The position numbers were made by a program, and so were the translations under genes. Of a stretch of 18,134 nt of DNA, positions 4,141 to 18,134 are shown in pieces. A model generated the notes under the pieces. The model was not told the origin of the DNA. It ran no database searches and saw nothing but the letters and a program-made list of their open reading frames with translations. How positions within the stretch are numbered: position 1 is the first letter of the stretch; every line of letters starts with the position of its first letter. The stretch comes from an uncultured Planctomycetaceae bacterium (GTDB lineage Bacteria > Planctomycetota > UBA1135 > GCA-002686595): positions 74,065-92,198 of the forward strand of contig CAYOBN010000009.1 of NCBI GenBank assembly GCA_964402175.1, written 5' to 3'.

Positions 4141-6297
4141 TCAGCGCCCGCGGCGCTCGCGCTCGAACCAGCCGGTCGCGCGCTCGACGGTGACCCCTTC
4201 GACGCGGCGCTCGAGGGACCACCTGACGTGGCGCGCCGCGGCACGCGAGCGCACCGTCGCCACCCCCACCACCCGCAGGCGACCGCCGTCCGGCGTCGCG
4301 GGGTGCTCTTCATAGGTGCGCGCCATGGGGTCCCAGAGCGCGAGCACCCAGCGCGACGCGTCGAGGGCCCGCGGATCGGCGGCGTCGGCGACTTCGAAGA
4401 CCCAGTCGTCGTCGATCGCGCGCGGGCGCGTCGCGGTGTCGGGGGAGAGGCCGCCGGGGCCAGGCAGCTCGGCGCCGAGGAGCGCCTCGCGCGGCCCGGC
4501 CAGCTCGCCGGGCAGCCGCAGGTCCCGGACGGTGCCTGCGAGCAGCCACTCGACGTCGCGCTCCAGGTCGAAGTGGGCCCGCCACCCGTCCTCGGTGCGC
4601 AGCCAGCCGCCGGTGACGGTGGGCTCCGTCCCGGCAGCTGAAGCGGGCGAGTAACGCAGGAGCGGCGCGCCGCCCGCCCGCGTGGGCTCCCCCGCGGGGA
4701 CCACGGTCAGGCTGCGTGTCCGCCACGGATCGAGCGGCGGCGCCGACGCCAGGTCGTCGCCCGGGCCGAAGCGCAGCGGCAACGCGGCGGTGTCGGCCGG
4801 GGCGGACAGCGGGCGCTCGCTGTAGGTGTCCGCTGCGGGGTCGCGCACGAGCAGCGTGGCGCCCGCGCGGCGCACGGCGTCGAAGGCCTCGGCGTCGAGG
4901 CTCCAAAGGCGCAGCGCGGCGCGGGGCAACCCGTAGACCTCGAACGGGCGGGCGGCGCCCTTGAGGAAGGGCTGCGCGACGAGGGCGGCTTCGTGCTGCG
5001 GAAGCAGGGCTGCGACGCCGGCGACATGGCGCGGCGGGTCCACGATCACGACCGCGCCTTCGTAGCCGCGTGCCTCTCCCGCGCGCAGCAGCGCGGACTG
5101 CAGCGCGCCGACGTGCTGGGCCGCCTCTTGGATCGTCGCGGCGCTGCCCGCCGCCAGGGGCGCGTAGACGGCGATGGCGATCGCGGGCAGGAGCGTGCGG
5201 CGCGCTCCGTACAGCGCAGTGGATGCCACGCCGAGGCCCGCGGCCATGAGAGCCGCGCCCGCGAGCAGGGTGCGCGCATCGCCGAGCTCCGCGGGGGCCG
5301 AGCGCACGGACCACGTCAGCGCGAGCAGCGCGGCGATGCACGCAGCCCATGCGCCGAGGATGCGCCCCCACAGCCGGGGGGCCGCGCGCGCGGCGACGAA
5401 CGCGGGGTGCAGGGCGGCGAGCACCGCGAGCACGGCCAGGAGGTAGCCGAAAACGCCGACGCCGCTCGTGTTCACGGGCAGCAGGAAGACCCCGAGTTTC
5501 TCAGCGGCGACGCCGAGCAGCGCCAGCGGACTGCGGTCGACGTGGGCGACGTGGGAGGCCTCGCCGCCGACGAGCGCGCGCAGCGCTCGCTCGATCAGGA
5601 GCGCGAGGGTGAAGCCGACGAACGTGTTCGCTGCGGTGCGGCAGCGCCGGCCGAGCTGGCGGTGCCGGTCCGCCGAAGCGAGCTCGAGCACCCCGAGCAC
5701 GACGGGCAGGCCGTAGGCCAGCGGCGAAGAAGCCGCGGACGCCAGCGTCAGCGCCCACGGCGCGGCGAGGCCCGCCCGCGAGCGCTCCTGACGCGCGTGC
5801 AGGTACACCGCGATCGCCCACAGCCCGAACGCCAAGCCGAGCATGTCCCCGCGGTCGCCGAGGTGCGCCGCCGCCGGGATCGCCAGCGGGTGCACCATCA
5901 GCAGCACCGCCGCCGTGTACCCCGCGGACCGCCCGTGTTCGAGCCCCGTCCACGGCGAGAGCCCGCGGCGCACGGCGACCCGCAGCCCGAGCGCCGCGAT
6001 CACGAGCAGCGCGAGTCCTTCGAGCCGCAGCCGCCCCGCGTCTCCGGGTGTGTAGCGCCCCTCGCGCGAGTGCCAGCGCTTCGAGAGACCGAGCGACCAC
6101 GCAGCCAGCGGCCGCCCGTGCAGCGCATCGACGCGCCAATACGCGAGCGCGCCCTCCTCGCGCAGGGTGGAGTCGAGCTCGACGAGGGTGGCGGCATCGT
6201 CCCCGAGGAAGCCGACCCCCAGCAACGGCCGGTGGGCATAGGCTGCGGCGAGGACGGCGAGGGCGACGAGGAGCGCGCGGCGCAGCCAGACGATCAT
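4141..6297 (-). CDS. Polytopic inner-membrane protein (~718 aa). It has ~11-13 predicted TM helices in the N-terminal ~430 aa and a ~290-aa C-terminal soluble (probably periplasmic) domain. A possible Asp-rich first-loop motif ([17 protein letters not shown]) recalls GT-C-fold glycosyltransferases of the ArnT/PMT type, but the assignment is speculative.
   Basis: Minus-strand ORF with proper GC3-rich codon usage. The proposed start is ATG at 6295-6297 ([20 protein letters not shown]...), directly followed by a TM helix. The track's longer ORF extends to 6825 only because no stop intervenes, and that extension is antisense to a convincing + strand gene. Stop TGA (minus) at 4141-4143, 44 bp upstream of queF on the same strand. 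The overlapping + strand ORF 4993..6345 translates to Arg/Glu/Gly low-complexity junk. Confidence 0.6.
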
Positions 6298-6345
6298 CGG
6301 GGGGAGTGTACTCGGGGCCCGTTCGGCTGCGATATCCTGGGCGAC

Positions 6346-6798
6346 ATGTTGCATCACTTCCGCCCGCTCCTCGATGCCGCGCGGGACCTCGACCTCACGG
6401 ATCCCGCCGCCGCCCGCGCCGAGCTCGAACGCCGCTTCCCGACGACCTCGCCGGCCGCACAGGCTCTGAACGCCGAACTGCGGACCCTGCTCGCTGCCGG
6501 ACAGATCGCCCACAAGGGCGAACCGCCCGTCCGCTGGTCCCGCGCCGCCAAAGCCACCCCGGAGAGCGACAGCTTCTCGATCGACATCGTCGACATGACG
6601 GGCCCCGGCCCTCGCCACCGCCACCCGAACGGCGAAGTCAACTACTGCATCGCCCTCGAAGGCCAGCCCACCTTCGACGACCAGCCGCCCGGCTGGGTGG
6701 TCGAGCCCCCCGGCTCGGAGCACGTTCCCACCGTCGATGGCGGTCGCATGCTGATCGTGTACCTGCTCCCCGCGGGCGCGATCGAGTTCGCGACGTAG
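6346..6798 (+). CDS. Small conserved hypothetical protein (~150 aa), possibly DUF4863-like (family name from memory, low confidence).
   Basis: ATG at 6346 opens MLHHFRPLLDAARDLDLTDPAAARAELERRFPTTSPAAQALNAELRTLLAAGQIAHKGEPPVRWSRAAKATPESDSFSIDIVDMTGPGPRHRHPNGEVNYCIALEGQPTFDDQPPGWVVEPPGSEHVPTVDGGRMLIVYLLPAGAIEF. This is a compositionally normal globular sequence, unlike the 5' extension of the same frame back to 4993. It is divergent from the membrane-protein gene, with ~48 bp between the two start codons. Stop TAG at 6796-6798. Confidence 0.5.
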   Translation: MLHHFRPLLDAARDLDLTDPAAARAELERRFPTTSPAAQALNAELRTLLAAGQIAHKGEPPVRWSRAAKATPESDSFSIDIVDMTGPGPRHRHPNGEVNYCIALEGQPTFDDQPPGWVVEPPGSEHVPTVDGGRMLIVYLLPAGAIEFAT

Positions 6799-6855
6799 CT
6801 GAGGAAACAGGAACGCCTCGAACAACGCACAGAGTACAGATAGCGAGAAGCGCGC

Positions 6856-7166
6856 GAGGTACCTGGTACACTTTGACGAGCGCGCGCCCGCTCCTTTTTG
6901 TCTCGCCTTTGTCTCCTCGCGCGCTCGTCAAAGTGTACCTGGTACCGTTTGATTCGGCGTTTCGGCAATGCCGCAGTGCGACGCCCCGATTCAAACGGTA
7001 CGAGGGACGCGAGGTACCTGGTACACTTTGACGAGCGCGCGCCCGCTCCTTTTTGTCTCGCCTTTGTCTCCTCGCGCGCTCGTCAAAGTGTACCTGGTAC
7101 CGTTTGATTCGGCGTTTCGGCAATGCCGTACTGCGAATCCCCCGATTCGAACGGTACCAGGGACGC
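6856..7166. repeat. Tandem direct repeat of two 155/156-bp units (6856-7010 and 7011-7166). The first 118 nt of each unit are 100% identical; the tails differ by a few substitutions and one indel. Each unit contains a perfect 22-bp inverted repeat with a 31-nt CT-rich loop, and a second imperfect 16-bp hairpin.
   Basis: Read directly from the sequence. The inverted-repeat arms are ggtacactttgacgagcgcgcg at 6865-6886 and its exact reverse complement cgcgcgctcgtcaaagtgtacc at 6918-6939; copy 2 has them at 7020-7041 and 7073-7094. The stem extends to ~29 bp with one mismatch, because the flanking aggtacct / tggtacc motifs are near-palindromic. The loop is cccgctcctttttgtctcgcctttgtctcct. The second hairpin is gtaccgtttgattcgg at 6942-6957 paired with ccgattcaaacggtac at 6985-7000, with one mismatch. 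The region is visibly lower in GC than the flanking genes and lies between the 3' ends of two convergent genes. Confidence 0.85.
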
Positions 7167-7240
7167 TCCGACAAGCGCGCTGAAAGCAAAAGGCGAGACA
7201 GAGACCCAAGGCGCGCGCTCGTCGAAGCGTACCTGGTACC
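7167..7240. repeat. Third, degenerate copy of the palindromic element. It retains the right arm and part of the left arm, and its loop is reverse-complemented relative to copies 1 and 2, so it looks like an inverted or rearranged copy.
   Basis: 7211-7240 gcgcgcgctcgtcgaagcgtacctggtacc matches the right arm gcgcgcgctcgtcaaagtgtacctggtacc with 2 mismatches. 7186-7204 gcaaaaggcgagacagagac resembles the reverse complement of the loop segment gtctcgcctttgtctc. 7171-7180 acaagcgcgc resembles the inner part of the left arm, gacgagcgcgcg. Confidence 0.5.
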
Positions 7241-7252
7241 TACGTACCTGGT

Positions 7253-7297
7253 CCCCACAAACCTGGTCCCCACATACCAGTTCCCCACATACCAGCC
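7253..7297. repeat. Three tandem 15-bp units (ccccacaaacctggt / ccccacataccagtt / ccccacataccagcc), preceded by a tacctggtacc tacgtacctggt motif. The array lies immediately 3' of the stop of the minus-strand deacylase gene.
   Basis: Read directly: units at 7253-7267, 7268-7282 and 7283-7297. The deacylase gene's stop (TGA, minus strand) is at 7306-7308, so the array is non-coding and in its 3' UTR/terminator region. Confidence 0.6.
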
Positions 7298-7305
7298 CCC
7301 TTCCC

Positions 7306-8478
7306 TCACCCTCGCCGCTGCGGTTTCTGCGCCCAAACCGCCTCATCCGCCCCCGTCACGTCGCGCTTCCTGAAGCCGAACACATGCAACGCGGCCACCA
7401 CTCCCCTCCCGAGTCGCCGCCTCGTCCTGCAGACCTTGTACCCAACCCCACCGTGCTCGGTTCGCACCGCCCGAATCCCCGGGAGCGCCAGCAACACCAC
7501 TTCGAGCCTCAGTCTCCGCACCCACCGGGACACCGTCAACCAAGTCGTCGACACCGGCCGGCAAAGGAAATACCCCTCCGCGCCCAACCCCTGATACAGC
7601 GGCATCAGCATGTACCCATCCAAAGGCGCCTGCATGAGCTCGCCGTTCTGCAGCGCCAAGCTCTGGTCGCGCCGCACGCGCATGAAGTTGCGCCAGCCCG
7701 GCTCCATCACGTAGGTGTCCCCCGCTTGCACCGGGTGGACGTACGAGAGGTCCATCACCCGCGGCAAGCCCTCGCTCACGCGGCCGAGGTGCGCGCGGGC
7801 CTCCACGACCTCGGGCCGATTTGCGTCGACCGCGCGCGCGCGCGCGAGCAACACCCAGAGCCCAGCGAGGCAAGTCCTGGTCGTCGTCGGGTCCGTGTGC
7901 TGCCCGCCCTCCAGCACCACCGCCGTGAACCCCTGATCGGCCATCCAGGTCAGCAGGGGCCCTGAGAGGCGCTCTTCGAGCCCGAGCACGACCGGCAGCG
8001 GCAGCGCCCGCGCCAGCAAGCGGCTGGGCACCGAGTCCGCGACCACCGTGAACCCCGCGCCACCGGCCGAAGTCGAGTGCAGGTCGATCAACACGACCTC
8101 GCGCGCGGGCTGCGCCGCCAGCTCGGCTTCGATCGCCGCGTGCAGCGCGCGCAGCTCGGCCTGGTCCGGAGAATCGTCCTCCTCCGGCCGCGTCCCGAGG
8201 GCCGCCACCTCCTCCGCGGTCCAGAGCCGATTCAAGTCCTGGCCCTGGTGACGCACCCCCCGCACGAGCGCGGCGCGGTTGCCGAGCAATCCGACCACCC
8301 GCCCTGCGACGTCATCGTCGCCCAACGCGGCCAACAGCCGCTCGAGCGCCTCGACGCCGCGCGGCTCGTTGCCGTGTTGGCCCGCGACGACGATCACGAG
8401 CGGCCCGCGCCGGCCCGAGTCGCGCACGCCGAGGACCCGCGGCGCGAGGGCGGCATCGTTCGTAGAGGTGCGCTGCAT
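7306..8478 (-). CDS. Succinylglutamate desuccinylase / aspartoacylase (AstE/AspA) family zinc-dependent deacylase. Substrate unknown.
   Basis: N-terminal zinc-binding motif VIVVAGQHGNEPRGVEA (GxHGNE), a second His in VVLIDLHSTSAGG, and overall length and layout fit the AstE_AspA family. ATG at 8476-8478 (MQRTSTNDAALAPRVLG...). The stop of the upstream ligase gene is 33 bp away on the same strand, so the two are probably an operon. The C-terminal ~60 aa are less certain. Confidence 0.7.
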   Translation of the reverse strand: MQRTSTNDAALAPRVLGVRDSGRRGPLVIVVAGQHGNEPRGVEALERLLAALGDDDVAGRVVGLLGNRAALVRGVRHQGQDLNRLWTAEEVAALGTRPEEDDSPDQAELRALHAAIEAELAAQPAREVVLIDLHSTSAGGAGFTVVADSVPSRLLARALPLPVVLGLEERLSGPLLTWMADQGFTAVVLEGGQHTDPTTTRTCLAGLWVLLARARAVDANRPEVVEARAHLGRVSEGLPRVMDLSYVHPVQAGDTYVMEPGWRNFMRVRRDQSLALQNGELMQAPLDGYMLMPLYQGLGAEGYFLCRPVSTTWLTVSRWVRRLRLEVVLLALPGIRAVRTEHGGVGYKVCRTRRRLGRGVVAALHVFGFRKRDVTGADEAVWAQKPQRRG

Positions 8479-17491: not shown

Positions 17492-17552
17492 GCTGCCGCG
17501 CGAGCAGAGAGCCTCTCACAGCGTCCGCTGCAGGATCACAGCTCAGCATCGA

Positions 17553-17596
17553 GACCAGCCTCGCAGACCTCTGCGAGCTGGTCTTCGTCTTCATCC
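17553..17596 (+). terminator. Candidate intrinsic terminator: a GC-rich hairpin (13 bp with one bulge; gaccagcctcgcag / ctgcgagctggtc, loop acct) followed by ttcgtcttcatcc.
   Basis: Read from the sequence, ~60 nt downstream of the 16148..17491 stop. The U-tract is weak (interrupted), as is common in GC-rich genomes. Not computationally verified. Confidence 0.3.
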
Positions 17597-17790
17597 AGGA
17601 CGTCGCGTGACTCACGGCCGAGCCGTCGCGCCCGCGCGCACCGGAGAACCTGCGGCCAGCGATCGAAGGAGTCCGCTTCGATTCGGCGGACATCGGCCCG
17701 AGACGCCAGGGCTACGACCGCGGATTTTCAACCCTCCAACCACGCCAACGTCTGATTCGGCGGTCATTGCCGAGCCCACCGAAGGCGAGG

Positions 17791-18134
17791 TCAGGTCTGG
17801 GCCCCAGTCGCCCGCGCATCCACCCGCGCCCGCCGCTTCATCGCAACGTGTCGCTTGCGAATACCCGGGATCGGATCCCTGTAGGACAACCCGTCCAGCT
17901 CGAACGCCTTGTACATCAGGTACGTGCGAGCTGGCCGCACGACCCCAGCCTCGCACCCACCTTCCGGAACGTTGAGGACGGGATCACTCCATCCGCTGAA
18001 CCACGCGGCGCTCGTCCAGCGATCCACCGTGGGCACACCGTCTCCTGTCCGCCAAGGATGGCCAAGGCCATGGTGTTCCCCGTTGCGCAACACGTACGCC
18101 ACTGCGTTGCGCACCTGCTGCAACGACTCCAGCA
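17791..18134 (-). CDS. 3' part of a Y1/HUH tyrosine-transposase-like gene (IS200/IS605 TnpA or REP-associated tyrosine transposase-like). The N-terminus lies beyond the right edge of the window.
   Basis: The minus-strand frame is open to the window edge (...LESLQQVRNAVAYVLRNGEHHGLGHPWRTGDGVPTVDRWTSAAWFSGW...). The YVLRNGEHHGL...W..AAWFS stretch resembles the C-terminal catalytic-Tyr region of RAYT/IS200-like proteins (e.g. E. coli YafM ...DYIYINPVKHGWV...DWPFSTFH). Stop TGA (minus) at 17791-17793. The family call is from memory, with moderate to low confidence. Confidence 0.4.
   Translation of the reverse strand, partial: LESLQQVRNAVAYVLRNGEHHGLGHPWRTGDGVPTVDRWTSAAWFSGWSDPVLNVPEGGCEAGVVRPARTYLMYKAFELDGLSYRDPIPGIRKRHVAMKRRARVDARATGAQT

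What the first reader, a model, noticed from the sequence alone, without database searches (positions are those of the whole stretch)
6856..7240. Tandem 155-bp structured palindromic elements in a low-GC island between convergent genes
Two tandem copies of a 155-bp unit sit between the convergent gene ends at 6798 and 7306. They are 118/118 identical at the 5' end and diverge in the last ~40 nt. Each unit has a perfect 22-bp inverted repeat (extendable to ~29 bp) around a 31-nt CT-rich loop, plus a second 16-bp imperfect hairpin that shares the ggtacc junction with the first. That sharing allows mutually exclusive alternative structures. A third degenerate copy follows at 7167-7240 with its loop reverse-complemented. 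Its palindromic stem is preserved, which is what an inverted insertion of the same element would look like. The region is clearly AT-richer than the ~70% GC background. That architecture fits three things. One is a MITE- or REP-like mobile palindromic element, and a Y1/HUH transposase-like gene is present at 17791-18134. Another is a duplicated small structured RNA gene. The third is a compound terminator/attenuator. No coding explanation exists: the six-frame ORFs across it (e.g. 6638..7336, 7053..7373) encode repeat-driven nonsense such as GGWYVGNWYVGTRFVGTRYVGTRY.
Basis: seen in the sequence. Interest (0 to 1): 0.75.

Follow-up and report, generated by a model that had tools for sequence, protein, structure and literature searches.

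The report
Nested-palindrome intergenic repeat element
The 450-bp AT-richer island between two convergent genes is a copy, with a partial tandem duplication, of a previously undescribed non-coding hairpin repeat that also occurs at unrelated sites in related GC-rich bacteria; it resembles the REP/BIME and MITE repeats of other bacteria and is of moderate, specialist interest.

Summary
Window 6853-7166 holds two 155-bp units, identical for their first 121 nt. Each has an 89-nt hairpin (29-bp stem, 31-nt CT-rich loop) and a second hairpin sharing GGTACC. A third hairpin has its loop inverted.

The conserved unit is not the 155-bp repeat. It is a ~240-bp nested palindrome, A-B-rc(A), at 7008-7247. 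That composite recurs at 79% identity, twice in tandem, between unrelated convergent genes on another metagenomic contig. Three relatives with the same two genes have only 16-43 bp between them, so the element was gained.

Many GC-rich metagenome contigs carry hairpins with the same invariant head, GGTACCAGGTAC...GTACCTGGTACC. Their inner stems differ and covary, and they mostly sit just after stop codons.

No Rfam family, protein homologue, plasmid or phage match, or paper was found.

Best reading: a new family of dispersed, non-autonomous palindromic repeats. It is built like BIME/NIME arrays and placed like REPs, and probably also acts as a bidirectional terminator or 3'-end hairpin. It fails the defining REP tests: no GTAG tag, and stems too long. 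The nearby Y1-transposase-like gene could not be linked to it.

A G·U versus A·C asymmetry in the stems hints at a single-stranded functional form. Interest is moderate.

The parts
6848..7300 (.). Whole repeat island. It fills most of the 507-bp spacer between the convergent PnbB-like gene (stop 6796-6798) and the AstE-like gene (stop 7306-7308).
7008..7247 (.). Composite unit A-B-rc(A), the ~240-bp nested palindrome that is conserved elsewhere
   Evidence: Aligns at 79% identity over 251 columns to L002 7630-7873, and to a second tandem copy there. The large inverted repeat is 7054-7112/7142-7200.
6853..7007 (.). Extra 155-bp A-B unit, a partial tandem duplication of the composite's left part
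   Evidence: 121 nt identical to 7008-7128
6858..6946 (+). Hairpin A1: arms 6858-6886/6918-6946, CT-rich loop 6887-6917 containing TGTCTCGCC
   Evidence: -54.7 kcal/mol, z = -10
6941..7002 (.). Hairpin B1 (GGTACCGTTTGATTCGGCG...CCCCGATTCAAACGGTAC). It shares GGTACC with A1.
7013..7101 (+). Hairpin A2: arms 7013-7041/7073-7101, same loop as A1
7096..7158 (.). Hairpin B2, the centre of the composite palindrome
   Evidence: GTACCTGGTACCGTTTGATTCGGCG is invariant between the window and the MAG copies.
7153..7240 (-). Hairpin A' (A3). It is the reverse complement of A, so its CT-rich loop is on the - strand. Arms 7153-7180/7213-7240.
   Evidence: -58.6 kcal/mol on the - strand, -49.4 on the + strand
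7226..7300 (-). Five tandem 15-bp units (GGTACCAGGTACGCT, GGGACCAGGTACGTA, GGGACCAGGTTTGTG, GGGAACTGGTATGTG, GGGGGCTGGTATGTG). They are progressively degenerate copies of the arm head.
   Evidence: 7230-7293, period 15, 4.3 copies; D3; segmentation read directly from the sequence
6878..6903 (+). Small terminator-like hairpin GAGCGCGCGCCCGCTC followed by CTTTTTGTCT. It is formed by the inner left arm and the start of the A loop. A second copy lies at 7033-7058.
   Evidence: 2 found against 0.8 expected, so weak
17791..18134 (-). C-terminal part of a Y1 (HUH) transposase-like gene. It is a candidate trans-acting enzyme only; no link to the element was shown.
   Evidence: negative flank checks

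Best explanation
**What it is.** A copy of a dispersed, non-coding, non-autonomous palindromic repeat family. It belongs to the same general kind as REP/BIME, NIME and MITE elements.

**How it is built.**
- The building block is a 29-nt arm headed by the 12-nt palindrome GGTACCWGGTAC.
- Arms alternate in orientation. They are separated alternately by a 31-nt pyrimidine-rich linker (the 'loop' of hairpin A) and a ~50-nt linker (hairpin B).
- Four arms make the ~240-bp nested palindrome A-B-rc(A).

**History at this locus.**
- Shown: the composite was copied into the short spacer between the 3' ends of two convergent genes.
- Shown: its left A-B part was later duplicated in tandem.
- Inferred: the 15-bp head was reiterated by slippage.

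**Likely effect.** This is inferred. Transcripts entering from either gene first form a 29-bp hairpin whose U-rich loop is on their own strand. The element therefore doubles as a bidirectional terminator or 3'-end protecting structure.

**Likely spread.** This is inferred and weaker. The family spreads through a single-stranded hairpin intermediate recognised at the invariant head by a trans-acting enzyme. A Y1/HUH transposase of the kind encoded 10.5 kb away is the leading candidate.
For: - **A second, unrelated locus.** The same composite is present twice in tandem (period 325) on contig CAYMSD010000062.1. Identity is 79%, and no flanking gene is homologous to the window's genes.
- **Gain at this site.** Relatives at 66-71% AstE identity have AstE and PnbB converging with spacers of 16, 43 and 23 bp and no element. 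The PnbB C-terminus is conserved up to its final residue.
- **A wider family.** The GC-rich ones (0.68-0.74) are long hairpins with the same head and different inner and outer stems. Several come from the same samples as the window's closest relatives.
- **Covariation.** In 11 A-type copies, the 26-pair helix has 98.6% of cells paired. Seven pairs changed on both sides, and 0 of 500 shuffles reached the observed score. The 12-nt head never varies.
- **Position.** Elements lie in tiny gaps just after stop codons. At least 10 of about 20 lie between convergent genes, as reported for REPs (PMC3733652).
- **Assembly breaks.** Contigs often end inside elements.
- **Strand asymmetry.** On the CT-loop strand the non-Watson-Crick cells are 9 G·U, 0 A·C and 4 other, from about 7 independent events. 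The A' hairpin is 9 kcal/mol more stable on that strand.
- **Not a known object.** No Rfam family reached threshold. There was no protein homologue, plasmid or phage match, or literature hit.
Against: - **Copy number is unknown.** No complete genome of the host is available. Only two loci carry the exact composite. A strict arm pattern found one contig among 185,579 species genomes and none in the JGI metagenomes.
- **MITE-type hallmarks are missing.** No target-site duplication, no autonomous parent element and no transposase flanked by the arms was found.
- **The head is not a terminus.** Palindromy often extends outward beyond it, which is not what a terminal inverted repeat looks like.
- **No enzyme link.** The Y1-like gene's flanks lack the arms.
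- **Termination is not required here.** Relatives lacking the element have no hairpin between these genes, so termination cannot be why it exists. The big hairpins also have no 3' U-tract.
- **Other subfamilies show no strand preference.** They have no consistent bias relative to gene orientation.
- **The asymmetry has another possible cause.** The G·U/A·C bias could reflect strand-biased mutation rather than selection.
Confidence: 0.6

Rival explanations
1. A family of functional structured RNAs: 3'-UTR-borne or independently transcribed sRNAs. The conserved CU-rich loop motif (UCUGUCUCGCCUU) would be the active part, for example pairing with purine-rich sites. The long stem would be a scaffold, and the tandem copies would be gene duplicates.
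For: - The loop motif TCTCGCC is conserved in 11 copies while the rest of the loop varies.
- The stem covaries.
- Wobble pairs are all G·U on the CT-loop strand, 9 against 0 A·C.
- The CT-loop strand is the sense strand of the abutting gene in every outer hairpin examined.
- A' folds 9 kcal/mol better on that strand.
Against: - No promoter-like site was found and no Rfam match.
- The composite is a palindrome, so its loop orientation is the same whichever way it inserts. Only about 3 orientation cases are independent.
- The invariant part is the stem base (the head), not the loop, and other subfamilies have quite different or tiny loops.
- Perfect 29-45-bp duplexes are unusual for trans-acting sRNAs. 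From general knowledge, such duplexes are expected to be RNase III substrates.
- There are no expression data.
Confidence: 0.13
2. A classical MITE: a deletion derivative of a DDE-transposase insertion sequence. The 29-nt arms would be terminal inverted repeats bound as double-stranded DNA, and the element would move by cut-and-paste with target-site duplication.
For: - Size fits: 89 bp for hairpin A and ~240 bp for the composite.
- The 29-nt inverted arms and the presence/absence polymorphism fit.
- The head reads as two direct heptamers (GGTACCA GGTACN) with conserved polarity in 13 of 17 hairpins, like multiple transposase-binding sites.
Against: - No target-site duplication is visible at any copy. 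Flanks outside the head are usually inverted, not direct.
- No full-length element with these ends occurs in about 760 kb of fetched loci, and ORFs between paired copies are ordinary genes.
- The G·U/A·C strand asymmetry is not expected for a site read as duplex DNA.
Confidence: 0.12
3. An array of double-stranded DNA binding sites for a dimeric protein that recognises the palindrome GGTACCWGGTACC, for example a nucleoid-organising, partition or regulatory protein. The hairpin potential would be incidental.
For: - The 12-nt head is strictly invariant across subfamilies, while adjacent stem positions vary freely.
- The window holds 7 to 10 head-like sites in 440 bp at roughly 75-bp spacing, plus five degenerate 15-bp reiterations.
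Against: - Full-length stems covary to keep pairing well beyond the head.
- The polarity of the central W is conserved, which a symmetric dimer would not require.
- No candidate binding-protein gene is adjacent in either locus.
- Sites are absent from about 46 kb of unselected DNA from relatives.
Confidence: 0.08
4. A locus-specific compound terminator or attenuator that arose in place by local duplication.
For: - It sits exactly between convergent 3' ends.
- The hairpins are very stable.
- A small hairpin plus T5 run lies inside A on the + strand.
Against: - The same 240-bp composite occurs between unrelated genes elsewhere.
- Relatives lack any hairpin at this site.
- The large stems have no U-tract after them.
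Confidence: 0.04

Closest known systems
BIMEs (bacterial interspersed mosaic elements) built from REP sequences, Enterobacteria/Pseudomonas (Nunvar 2010, PMC2817692; Di Nocera 2013, PMC3733652)
   Same: - Short arms in regularly alternating orientation, separated by two alternating linker types.
- Tandem reiteration of the module.
- Location downstream of ORFs, especially between convergent genes.
- Potential to fold either as small hairpins or as one large one.
- Species-specific sequence variants.
   Different: - Arms are 29 nt with a 12-nt self-palindromic head, and they pair with each other to give 29-bp stems. REPs have 5-13-bp stems within 20-40-nt units.
- There is no unpaired GTAG or CGTC tag.
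- Copy number is unknown.
- No REPtron was found.
TIR repeat families associated with tyrosine transposases (TIRtrons/TIRYTs; Di Nocera 2013, PMC3733652)
   Same: - Longer inverted repeats, some self-complementary, organised as dimers or clusters.
- Found in genomes that encode Y1 transposases but lack GTAG REPs. The planctomycete R. baltica is cited as rich in such genes and repeats.
- A Y1_Tnp-like gene lies in the window.
   Different: The defining arrangement, a transposase gene flanked by the same repeats, was not seen. The 3' flank of the window's gene and the flanks of three homologues lack the arms. The 5' flank lies outside the window.
Neisseria intergenic mosaic elements (NIMEs: dRS3 inverted repeats flanking variable RS segments)
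   Same: A short invariant inverted-repeat motif brackets variable segments of 30-100 bp, in intergenic arrays.
   Different: The motif sequence is unrelated. There is no evidence that the head serves as an integration target. The taxa are different.
Bacterial MITEs such as Correia/NEMIS, ERIC, RUP
   Same: - 70-300-bp non-coding elements with 15-30-bp inverted ends.
- Co-transcribed with neighbouring genes and folding into robust hairpins.
- Presence/absence polymorphism between relatives.
   Different: No target-site duplication and no parent IS were found. Palindromy extends beyond the supposed termini. The arms recur internally, four to six per island.

Membership tests
REP (GTAG- or CGTC-tagged repetitive extragenic palindromes) | 20-40-nt imperfect palindrome with a 5-13-bp stem and a 2-20-nt loop | tested here: not met
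   Hairpin A is 89 nt with a 29-bp stem and a 31-nt loop. Definition taken from PMC3733652.
REP (GTAG- or CGTC-tagged repetitive extragenic palindromes) | Conserved unpaired GTAG or CGTC tetranucleotide at one end | tested here: not met
   The conserved end is the fully paired GGTACCWGGTAC. No GTAG tag is present. CGTC/GACG occurs only inside stems or in the paired outer flanks of some relatives.
REP (GTAG- or CGTC-tagged repetitive extragenic palindromes) | Copies flank a RAYT gene (REPtron) | tested here: inconclusive
   The Y1-like gene's 3' flank (17492-17790) and the flanks in L129, L130 and L131 lack the arms. The 5' flank of the window's gene lies outside the window.
REP (GTAG- or CGTC-tagged repetitive extragenic palindromes) | High copy number within one genome | not testable with these tools
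   No complete host genome is available. Only metagenomic contigs were found. Contig breaks inside elements hint at multiple copies.
REP (GTAG- or CGTC-tagged repetitive extragenic palindromes) | Extragenic, mostly downstream of ORFs, between convergent or co-directional genes | tested here: met
   Holds for the window, the other contig and about 20 GC-rich relatives.
BIME | Regularly spaced palindromic units in alternating orientation with alternating linker types | tested here: met
   Six arms alternate in orientation, with 31-nt and ~50-nt linkers in alternation. This is an architectural match only, because the units are not REPs.
MITE | Terminal inverted repeats of 15-30 bp on a 70-300-bp non-coding element | tested here: met
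   29-nt arms; 89-bp hairpin A and ~240-bp composite.
MITE | Target-site duplication flanking each copy | tested here: not met
   No direct repeats occur at the boundaries in the window, the other contig, L028, L037, L086, L097 or L106. The flanks are inverted instead.
MITE | Related autonomous IS with the same ends | tested here: not met
   None occurs in about 760 kb of fetched loci. ORFs between paired copies are ordinary genes. The search space was limited.
Intrinsic (Rho-independent) terminator | GC-rich stem immediately followed by a U-tract | tested here: inconclusive
   The large stems have no U-tract. A 5-bp hairpin plus CTTTTT lies inside A on the + strand only, with 2 sites found against 0.8 expected.
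Any Rfam RNA family | Covariance-model score at or above the gathering threshold | tested here: not met
   There were 0 hits at gathering thresholds. Only generic miRNA-precursor hairpin matches appeared, far below threshold.

The most novel reading that the evidence does not exclude
The GGTACCWGGTAC-headed hairpins would be a distinct class of element in uncultured GC-rich Planctomycetota-like bacteria that works through a single-stranded form. The invariant 12-bp duplex at the hairpin base would be the recognition site of a dedicated enzyme, either a divergent Y1/HUH transposase or an RNA-processing factor. The pyrimidine-rich loop strand would be the active strand. That would make it a new REPIN-like system with its own tag and architecture.
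Probability: 0.2. Interest if true: 0.6.

Novelty: new member of a known kind. Interest (0 to 1): 0.35.

Why it matters
- **A new family in a poorly studied lineage.** Small palindromic repeats shape bacterial genome plasticity, transcript 3' ends and assembly quality. Almost all characterised families come from Proteobacteria. This one appears to belong to uncultured, Planctomycetota-like bacteria.
- **Clear features to work with.** It has a sharply defined invariant head, covarying stems and a nested-palindrome architecture. That gives a concrete sequence handle for annotating these genomes.
- **A practical consequence.** It explains contig breaks in these assemblies.
- **An open question it could address.** Tag-less palindromic repeats may or may not be mobilised by divergent Y1 transposases. 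This family offers a test case.
- **Limits.** It does not change how such elements are understood. It extends their range.

Tried and rejected
- **Strict arm patterns.** In JGI metagenomes and IMG/VR there were no hits. A looser pattern there would have been more informative.
- **Translating the island.** I used this to catch mis-called ORFs over other copies. No homologue was found.
- **blastn against plasmids and phages.** Nothing was found. The gapped head pattern gave one hit in viral contigs.
- **Rfam.** Nothing at gathering thresholds, and only hairpin noise at relaxed E-values.
- **Literature search for the 13-mer.** Only unrelated papers came up, none describing it as a repeat.
- **Covariance model of hairpin A over 264 kb of GC-rich loci.** No new A-type copies beyond those already known.
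- **REPtron test.** The Y1-like fragment and its 167-aa homologue have no Pfam, NCBIfam or PDB hit of their own. Relatives reach Pfam Y1_Tnp only weakly. Their contigs are about 1 kb, and their flanks lack GGTACC heads.
- **Cross-phylum 13-mer.** I considered that GGTACCWGGTACC is a conserved functional motif across phyla, because many low-GC contigs matched. I rejected this as a main claim. Many of those hits are (GGTACCW)n heptamer microsatellites or GTAC-rich low-complexity DNA.
- **Loop orientation as proof of an RNA function.** I downgraded this. The composite is itself palindromic, so few cases are independent.
- **Strand preference in other hairpin subfamilies.** There was no consistent pattern relative to gene orientation.
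- **Other element types.** CRISPR, integron attC, retron, invertible-segment and telomere-resolution readings were considered and dropped. The matching repeat length, core sites or neighbouring genes are absent.

Full report
**1.

- Tandem Repeats Finder reports 6853-7166 as 2.0 copies of a 155-bp unit with 95% matches. The units are identical for 121 nt (6853-6973 = 7008-7128) and then diverge, with one indel.
- Each unit has hairpin A. The arms are 29 nt and 97% complementary (6858-6886/6918-6946 and 7013-7041/7073-7101). The loop is 31 nt and 87% pyrimidine.
- Each unit also has hairpin B, which borrows the GGTACC of the adjacent A arms. The two foldings therefore compete.
- A third A-type hairpin lies at 7153-7240. 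Its loop is the reverse complement of the A loop.
- Chance does not explain this. The arm pattern has 5 matches against 0.00 expected, and the 13-mer head has 14 against 0.07. Folding z-scores are -16 and -13 for the island and -10 for hairpin A.
- GC falls to 58-60% against a 71% window mean.
- ORFs crossing the island have non-coding GC3 (0.58-0.65, against 0.83-0.92 for real genes) and no Pfam hit.
- The flanking genes converge on the island. The PnbB-like gene is 6346-6798 (+) and the AstE/AspA-like gene is 7306-8478 (-).

**2. Revised anatomy**

- One contig in the species-genome collection matches the arm: CAYMSD010000062.1, a GC-rich MAG contig labelled Klebsiella. That label is surely wrong at 69-72% GC.
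- The contig carries two tandem copies (period 325, about 96% alike) of a ~240-bp module. The module aligns end to end with window 7008-7247 at 79% identity.
- The module is A, then B, then the reverse complement of A. It is a nested palindrome whose large arms are 7054-7112/7142-7200.
- So the 'third, inverted copy' is an original part of the unit. The 155-bp repeat (6853-7007) is a later partial duplication of A-B.
- Seen another way, six 29-nt arms alternate in orientation, and 31-nt and ~50-nt linkers alternate between them.
- To the right, five tandem 15-mers (7226-7300, read on the - strand) are progressively degenerate copies of the arm head.

**3. It is a dispersed element, gained at this site**

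- tblastx found only short, weak matches outside the element (bits 41 or less), so the flanking genes do not correspond. The genes next to the other contig's element include a DUF3299 protein and an ABC/MacB-type transporter. That element also sits between convergent 3' ends.
- AstE homologues place the host near Planctomycetota. Named hits are about 50-53% identical, including Saltatorellus ferox.
- Three relatives at 66-71% AstE identity keep AstE and PnbB convergent with spacers of only 16, 43 and 23 bp and no hairpin. The PnbB C-terminus is conserved up to its final residue. About 450 bp was therefore added in the window's lineage without touching either coding end.
- The closest relative (83%) has unrelated sequence at this position, and its contig ends there.

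**4. A wider family**

- The strict arm pattern found nothing in JGI metagenomes or viral contigs.
- Many low-GC hits are (GGTACCW)n microsatellites or GTAC-rich low-complexity DNA. I do not count these as relatives.
- The GC-rich hits (0.68-0.74) are true hairpins with the same head and different inner stems. In several, palindromy also continues outward for 7-20 bp. Several come from the same samples as the window's relatives.
- An 'A-type' subgroup comprises L028, L035, L106, L124, the other contig and the window. It shares the CT-rich loop with the motif TCTCGCC.
- The other contig has a second locus with another inner stem at its very end.
- A crude GC3-based gene map places these hairpins in tiny gaps just after stop codons. 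At least 10 of about 20 lie between convergent genes. This is the distribution reported for REPs (PMC3733652).

**5. Structure is under constraint, and perhaps on one strand**

- In the 11 A-type copies, the 26-pair helix has 98.6% of cells paired and 7 pairs changed on both sides. Sliding the partner column collapses the pairing, and 0 of 500 shuffles reach the score. The 12-nt head never varies.
- On the CT-loop strand the non-Watson-Crick cells are 9 G·U, 0 A·C and 4 other. By my count these come from about 7 independent events, a one-sided p of about 0.008 if transitions were strand-neutral.
- The A' hairpin is 9 kcal/mol more stable on that strand.
- This favours a functional single-stranded form, either RNA or ssDNA. 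Strand-biased mutation is an alternative explanation.
- Other subfamilies show no consistent strand preference.
- The CT-loop strand is the sense strand of the abutting gene in every outer hairpin I checked. Because the composite is palindromic, only about three of those cases are independent.

**6. What it is not**

- No Rfam family reaches threshold.
- No promoter-like site was found. Only a weak terminator-like mini-hairpin lies inside A.
- Translations of the island have no homologues, and there is no plasmid or phage match.
- No paper mentions the 13-mer as a repeat.
- No target-site duplication and no parent IS were seen.

**7. The Y1-like gene**

- The fragment at 17791-18134 (-) has a 167-aa homologue. 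By eye that homologue shows an HUH-like motif (NHLHMI) and a YVLRN tyrosine motif.
- The fragment and that homologue give no Pfam, NCBIfam or PDB hit of their own.
- Eight of ten relatives scanned reach Pfam Y1_Tnp weakly. One scores 34.6 bits, above the cut-off.
- However, its 3' flank and the flanks of three homologues contain no GGTACC head. Those homologues sit on ~1-kb contigs.
- One weak lead remains. GATTCGGCG is a core of the B arms and occurs 6 times in the window against 0.62 expected. Two of those copies lie in the gene's 3' flank.

**8. Verdict**

- This is a new family of non-coding, dispersed palindromic repeats. It is built like BIME/NIME arrays and positioned like REPs and MITEs.
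- It fails the defining REP tests (tag, size) and the MITE tests (target-site duplication, parent IS).
- Shown: the anatomy, recurrence at a non-syntenic locus, gain relative to orthologous sites, a head-sharing hairpin family, and stem covariation.
- Inferred: a role as a bidirectional terminator or 3'-end hairpin, and spread through single-stranded hairpins by a trans-acting enzyme, possibly a Y1 transposase.
- The novelty lies in the family, not the kind. Interest is moderate.

Noticed in passing
window 7226-7300 (- strand): Five tandem 15-bp units lie directly after the AstE stop codon. They look like progressively decayed copies of the arm head GGTACCAGGTACGCT. This suggests slippage at the element's end, or an array of weaker sites for whatever recognises the head.
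   Followed up: partly
L001 3621-3758 (contig CAYMSD010000062.1, 19621-19758): A second head-bearing element (GGTACCAGGTACGAGTTTGCGGCGCG...) sits at the very end of the other contig. It is preceded by four tandem 12-mers, GGTGCAACTCCC. Short tandem repeats thus lie next to head-bearing elements in both genomes.
   Followed up: partly
window 17680-17688 and 17754-17762; also 6951-6959 and 7106-7114: GATTCGGCG, the core of the B-hairpin arm, occurs 6 times in the window against 0.62 expected. The only intergenic copies outside the element are two in the 3' flank of the Y1-like gene. L131, upstream of a Y1-like homologue, has GCCGAATCAAG twice. This is a possible but unproven link between B arms and Y1-gene flanks.
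   Followed up: partly
L129, L130, L131 and the P0123 contig: Homologues of the Y1-like protein all sit on contigs of about 0.9-1.2 kb that are almost filled by the gene. This is typical of multi-copy genes that break metagenome assemblies.
   Followed up: no
L018, L069, L081, L088, L101, L118, L121: A separate subfamily of 96-97-nt imperfect hairpins with repeated GTCAC/GTGAC motifs. In most of these (L069, L081, L088, L101, L118) the pattern is GGCC/GACC-GGTACCAGGTACC ... GGTACCTGGTACC-GGCC. They sit between gene ends in other GC-rich contigs.
   Followed up: partly
L044 191-291, L055 5655-5755 and 9165-9265, L114 2473-2575: In a low-GC (0.40) organism, a ~100-bp intergenic repeat carries three GGTACCWGGTACC 13-mers separated by ~31-nt segments. 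It recurs at several loci between ordinary genes. Whether it is related to the GC-rich family is unknown.
   Followed up: partly
L076 2655-2772, L030 6797-6893, L112 1931-2027, L073, L027, L019: Pure or nearly pure (GGTACCW)n heptamer microsatellites occur in diverse metagenome contigs. The 13-mer head equals two such heptamers.
   Followed up: no
L004 8327-8443 / L005 8239-8373: In the closest relative (83% AstE identity), the position of the element is occupied by different sequence containing another inverted repeat (GAAACTTGCAAC...GTTGCGTTTC). Both contigs end there, so the site may hold a different repeat.
   Followed up: no
L006 7143-7172: In a 71% relative the contig ends 29 nt after the AstE stop with ...GTTGTCGAATCGGCG. 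This resembles the B-arm and outer-stem motif seen in L037 from the same sample. It may be the edge of a related element at the orthologous site.
   Followed up: no
window 4141-6825 (-) versus 4993-6798 (+): Two long overlapping ORFs on opposite strands both have coding-like GC3. Comparison with relatives shows the real genes are a ~700-aa hypothetical protein on the - strand and the 150-aa PnbB-like gene at 6346-6798 (+). The 601-aa + ORF is an artefact of high GC.
   Followed up: partly
L007 10060-10290: A ~180-bp direct repeat (gaacgctcggtcatgcgccct...) brackets a hairpin, CCATCCATGACCTGGT...ACCAGGTCATGGATGG. This lies in the relative that has no element at the AstE/PnbB site.
   Followed up: no
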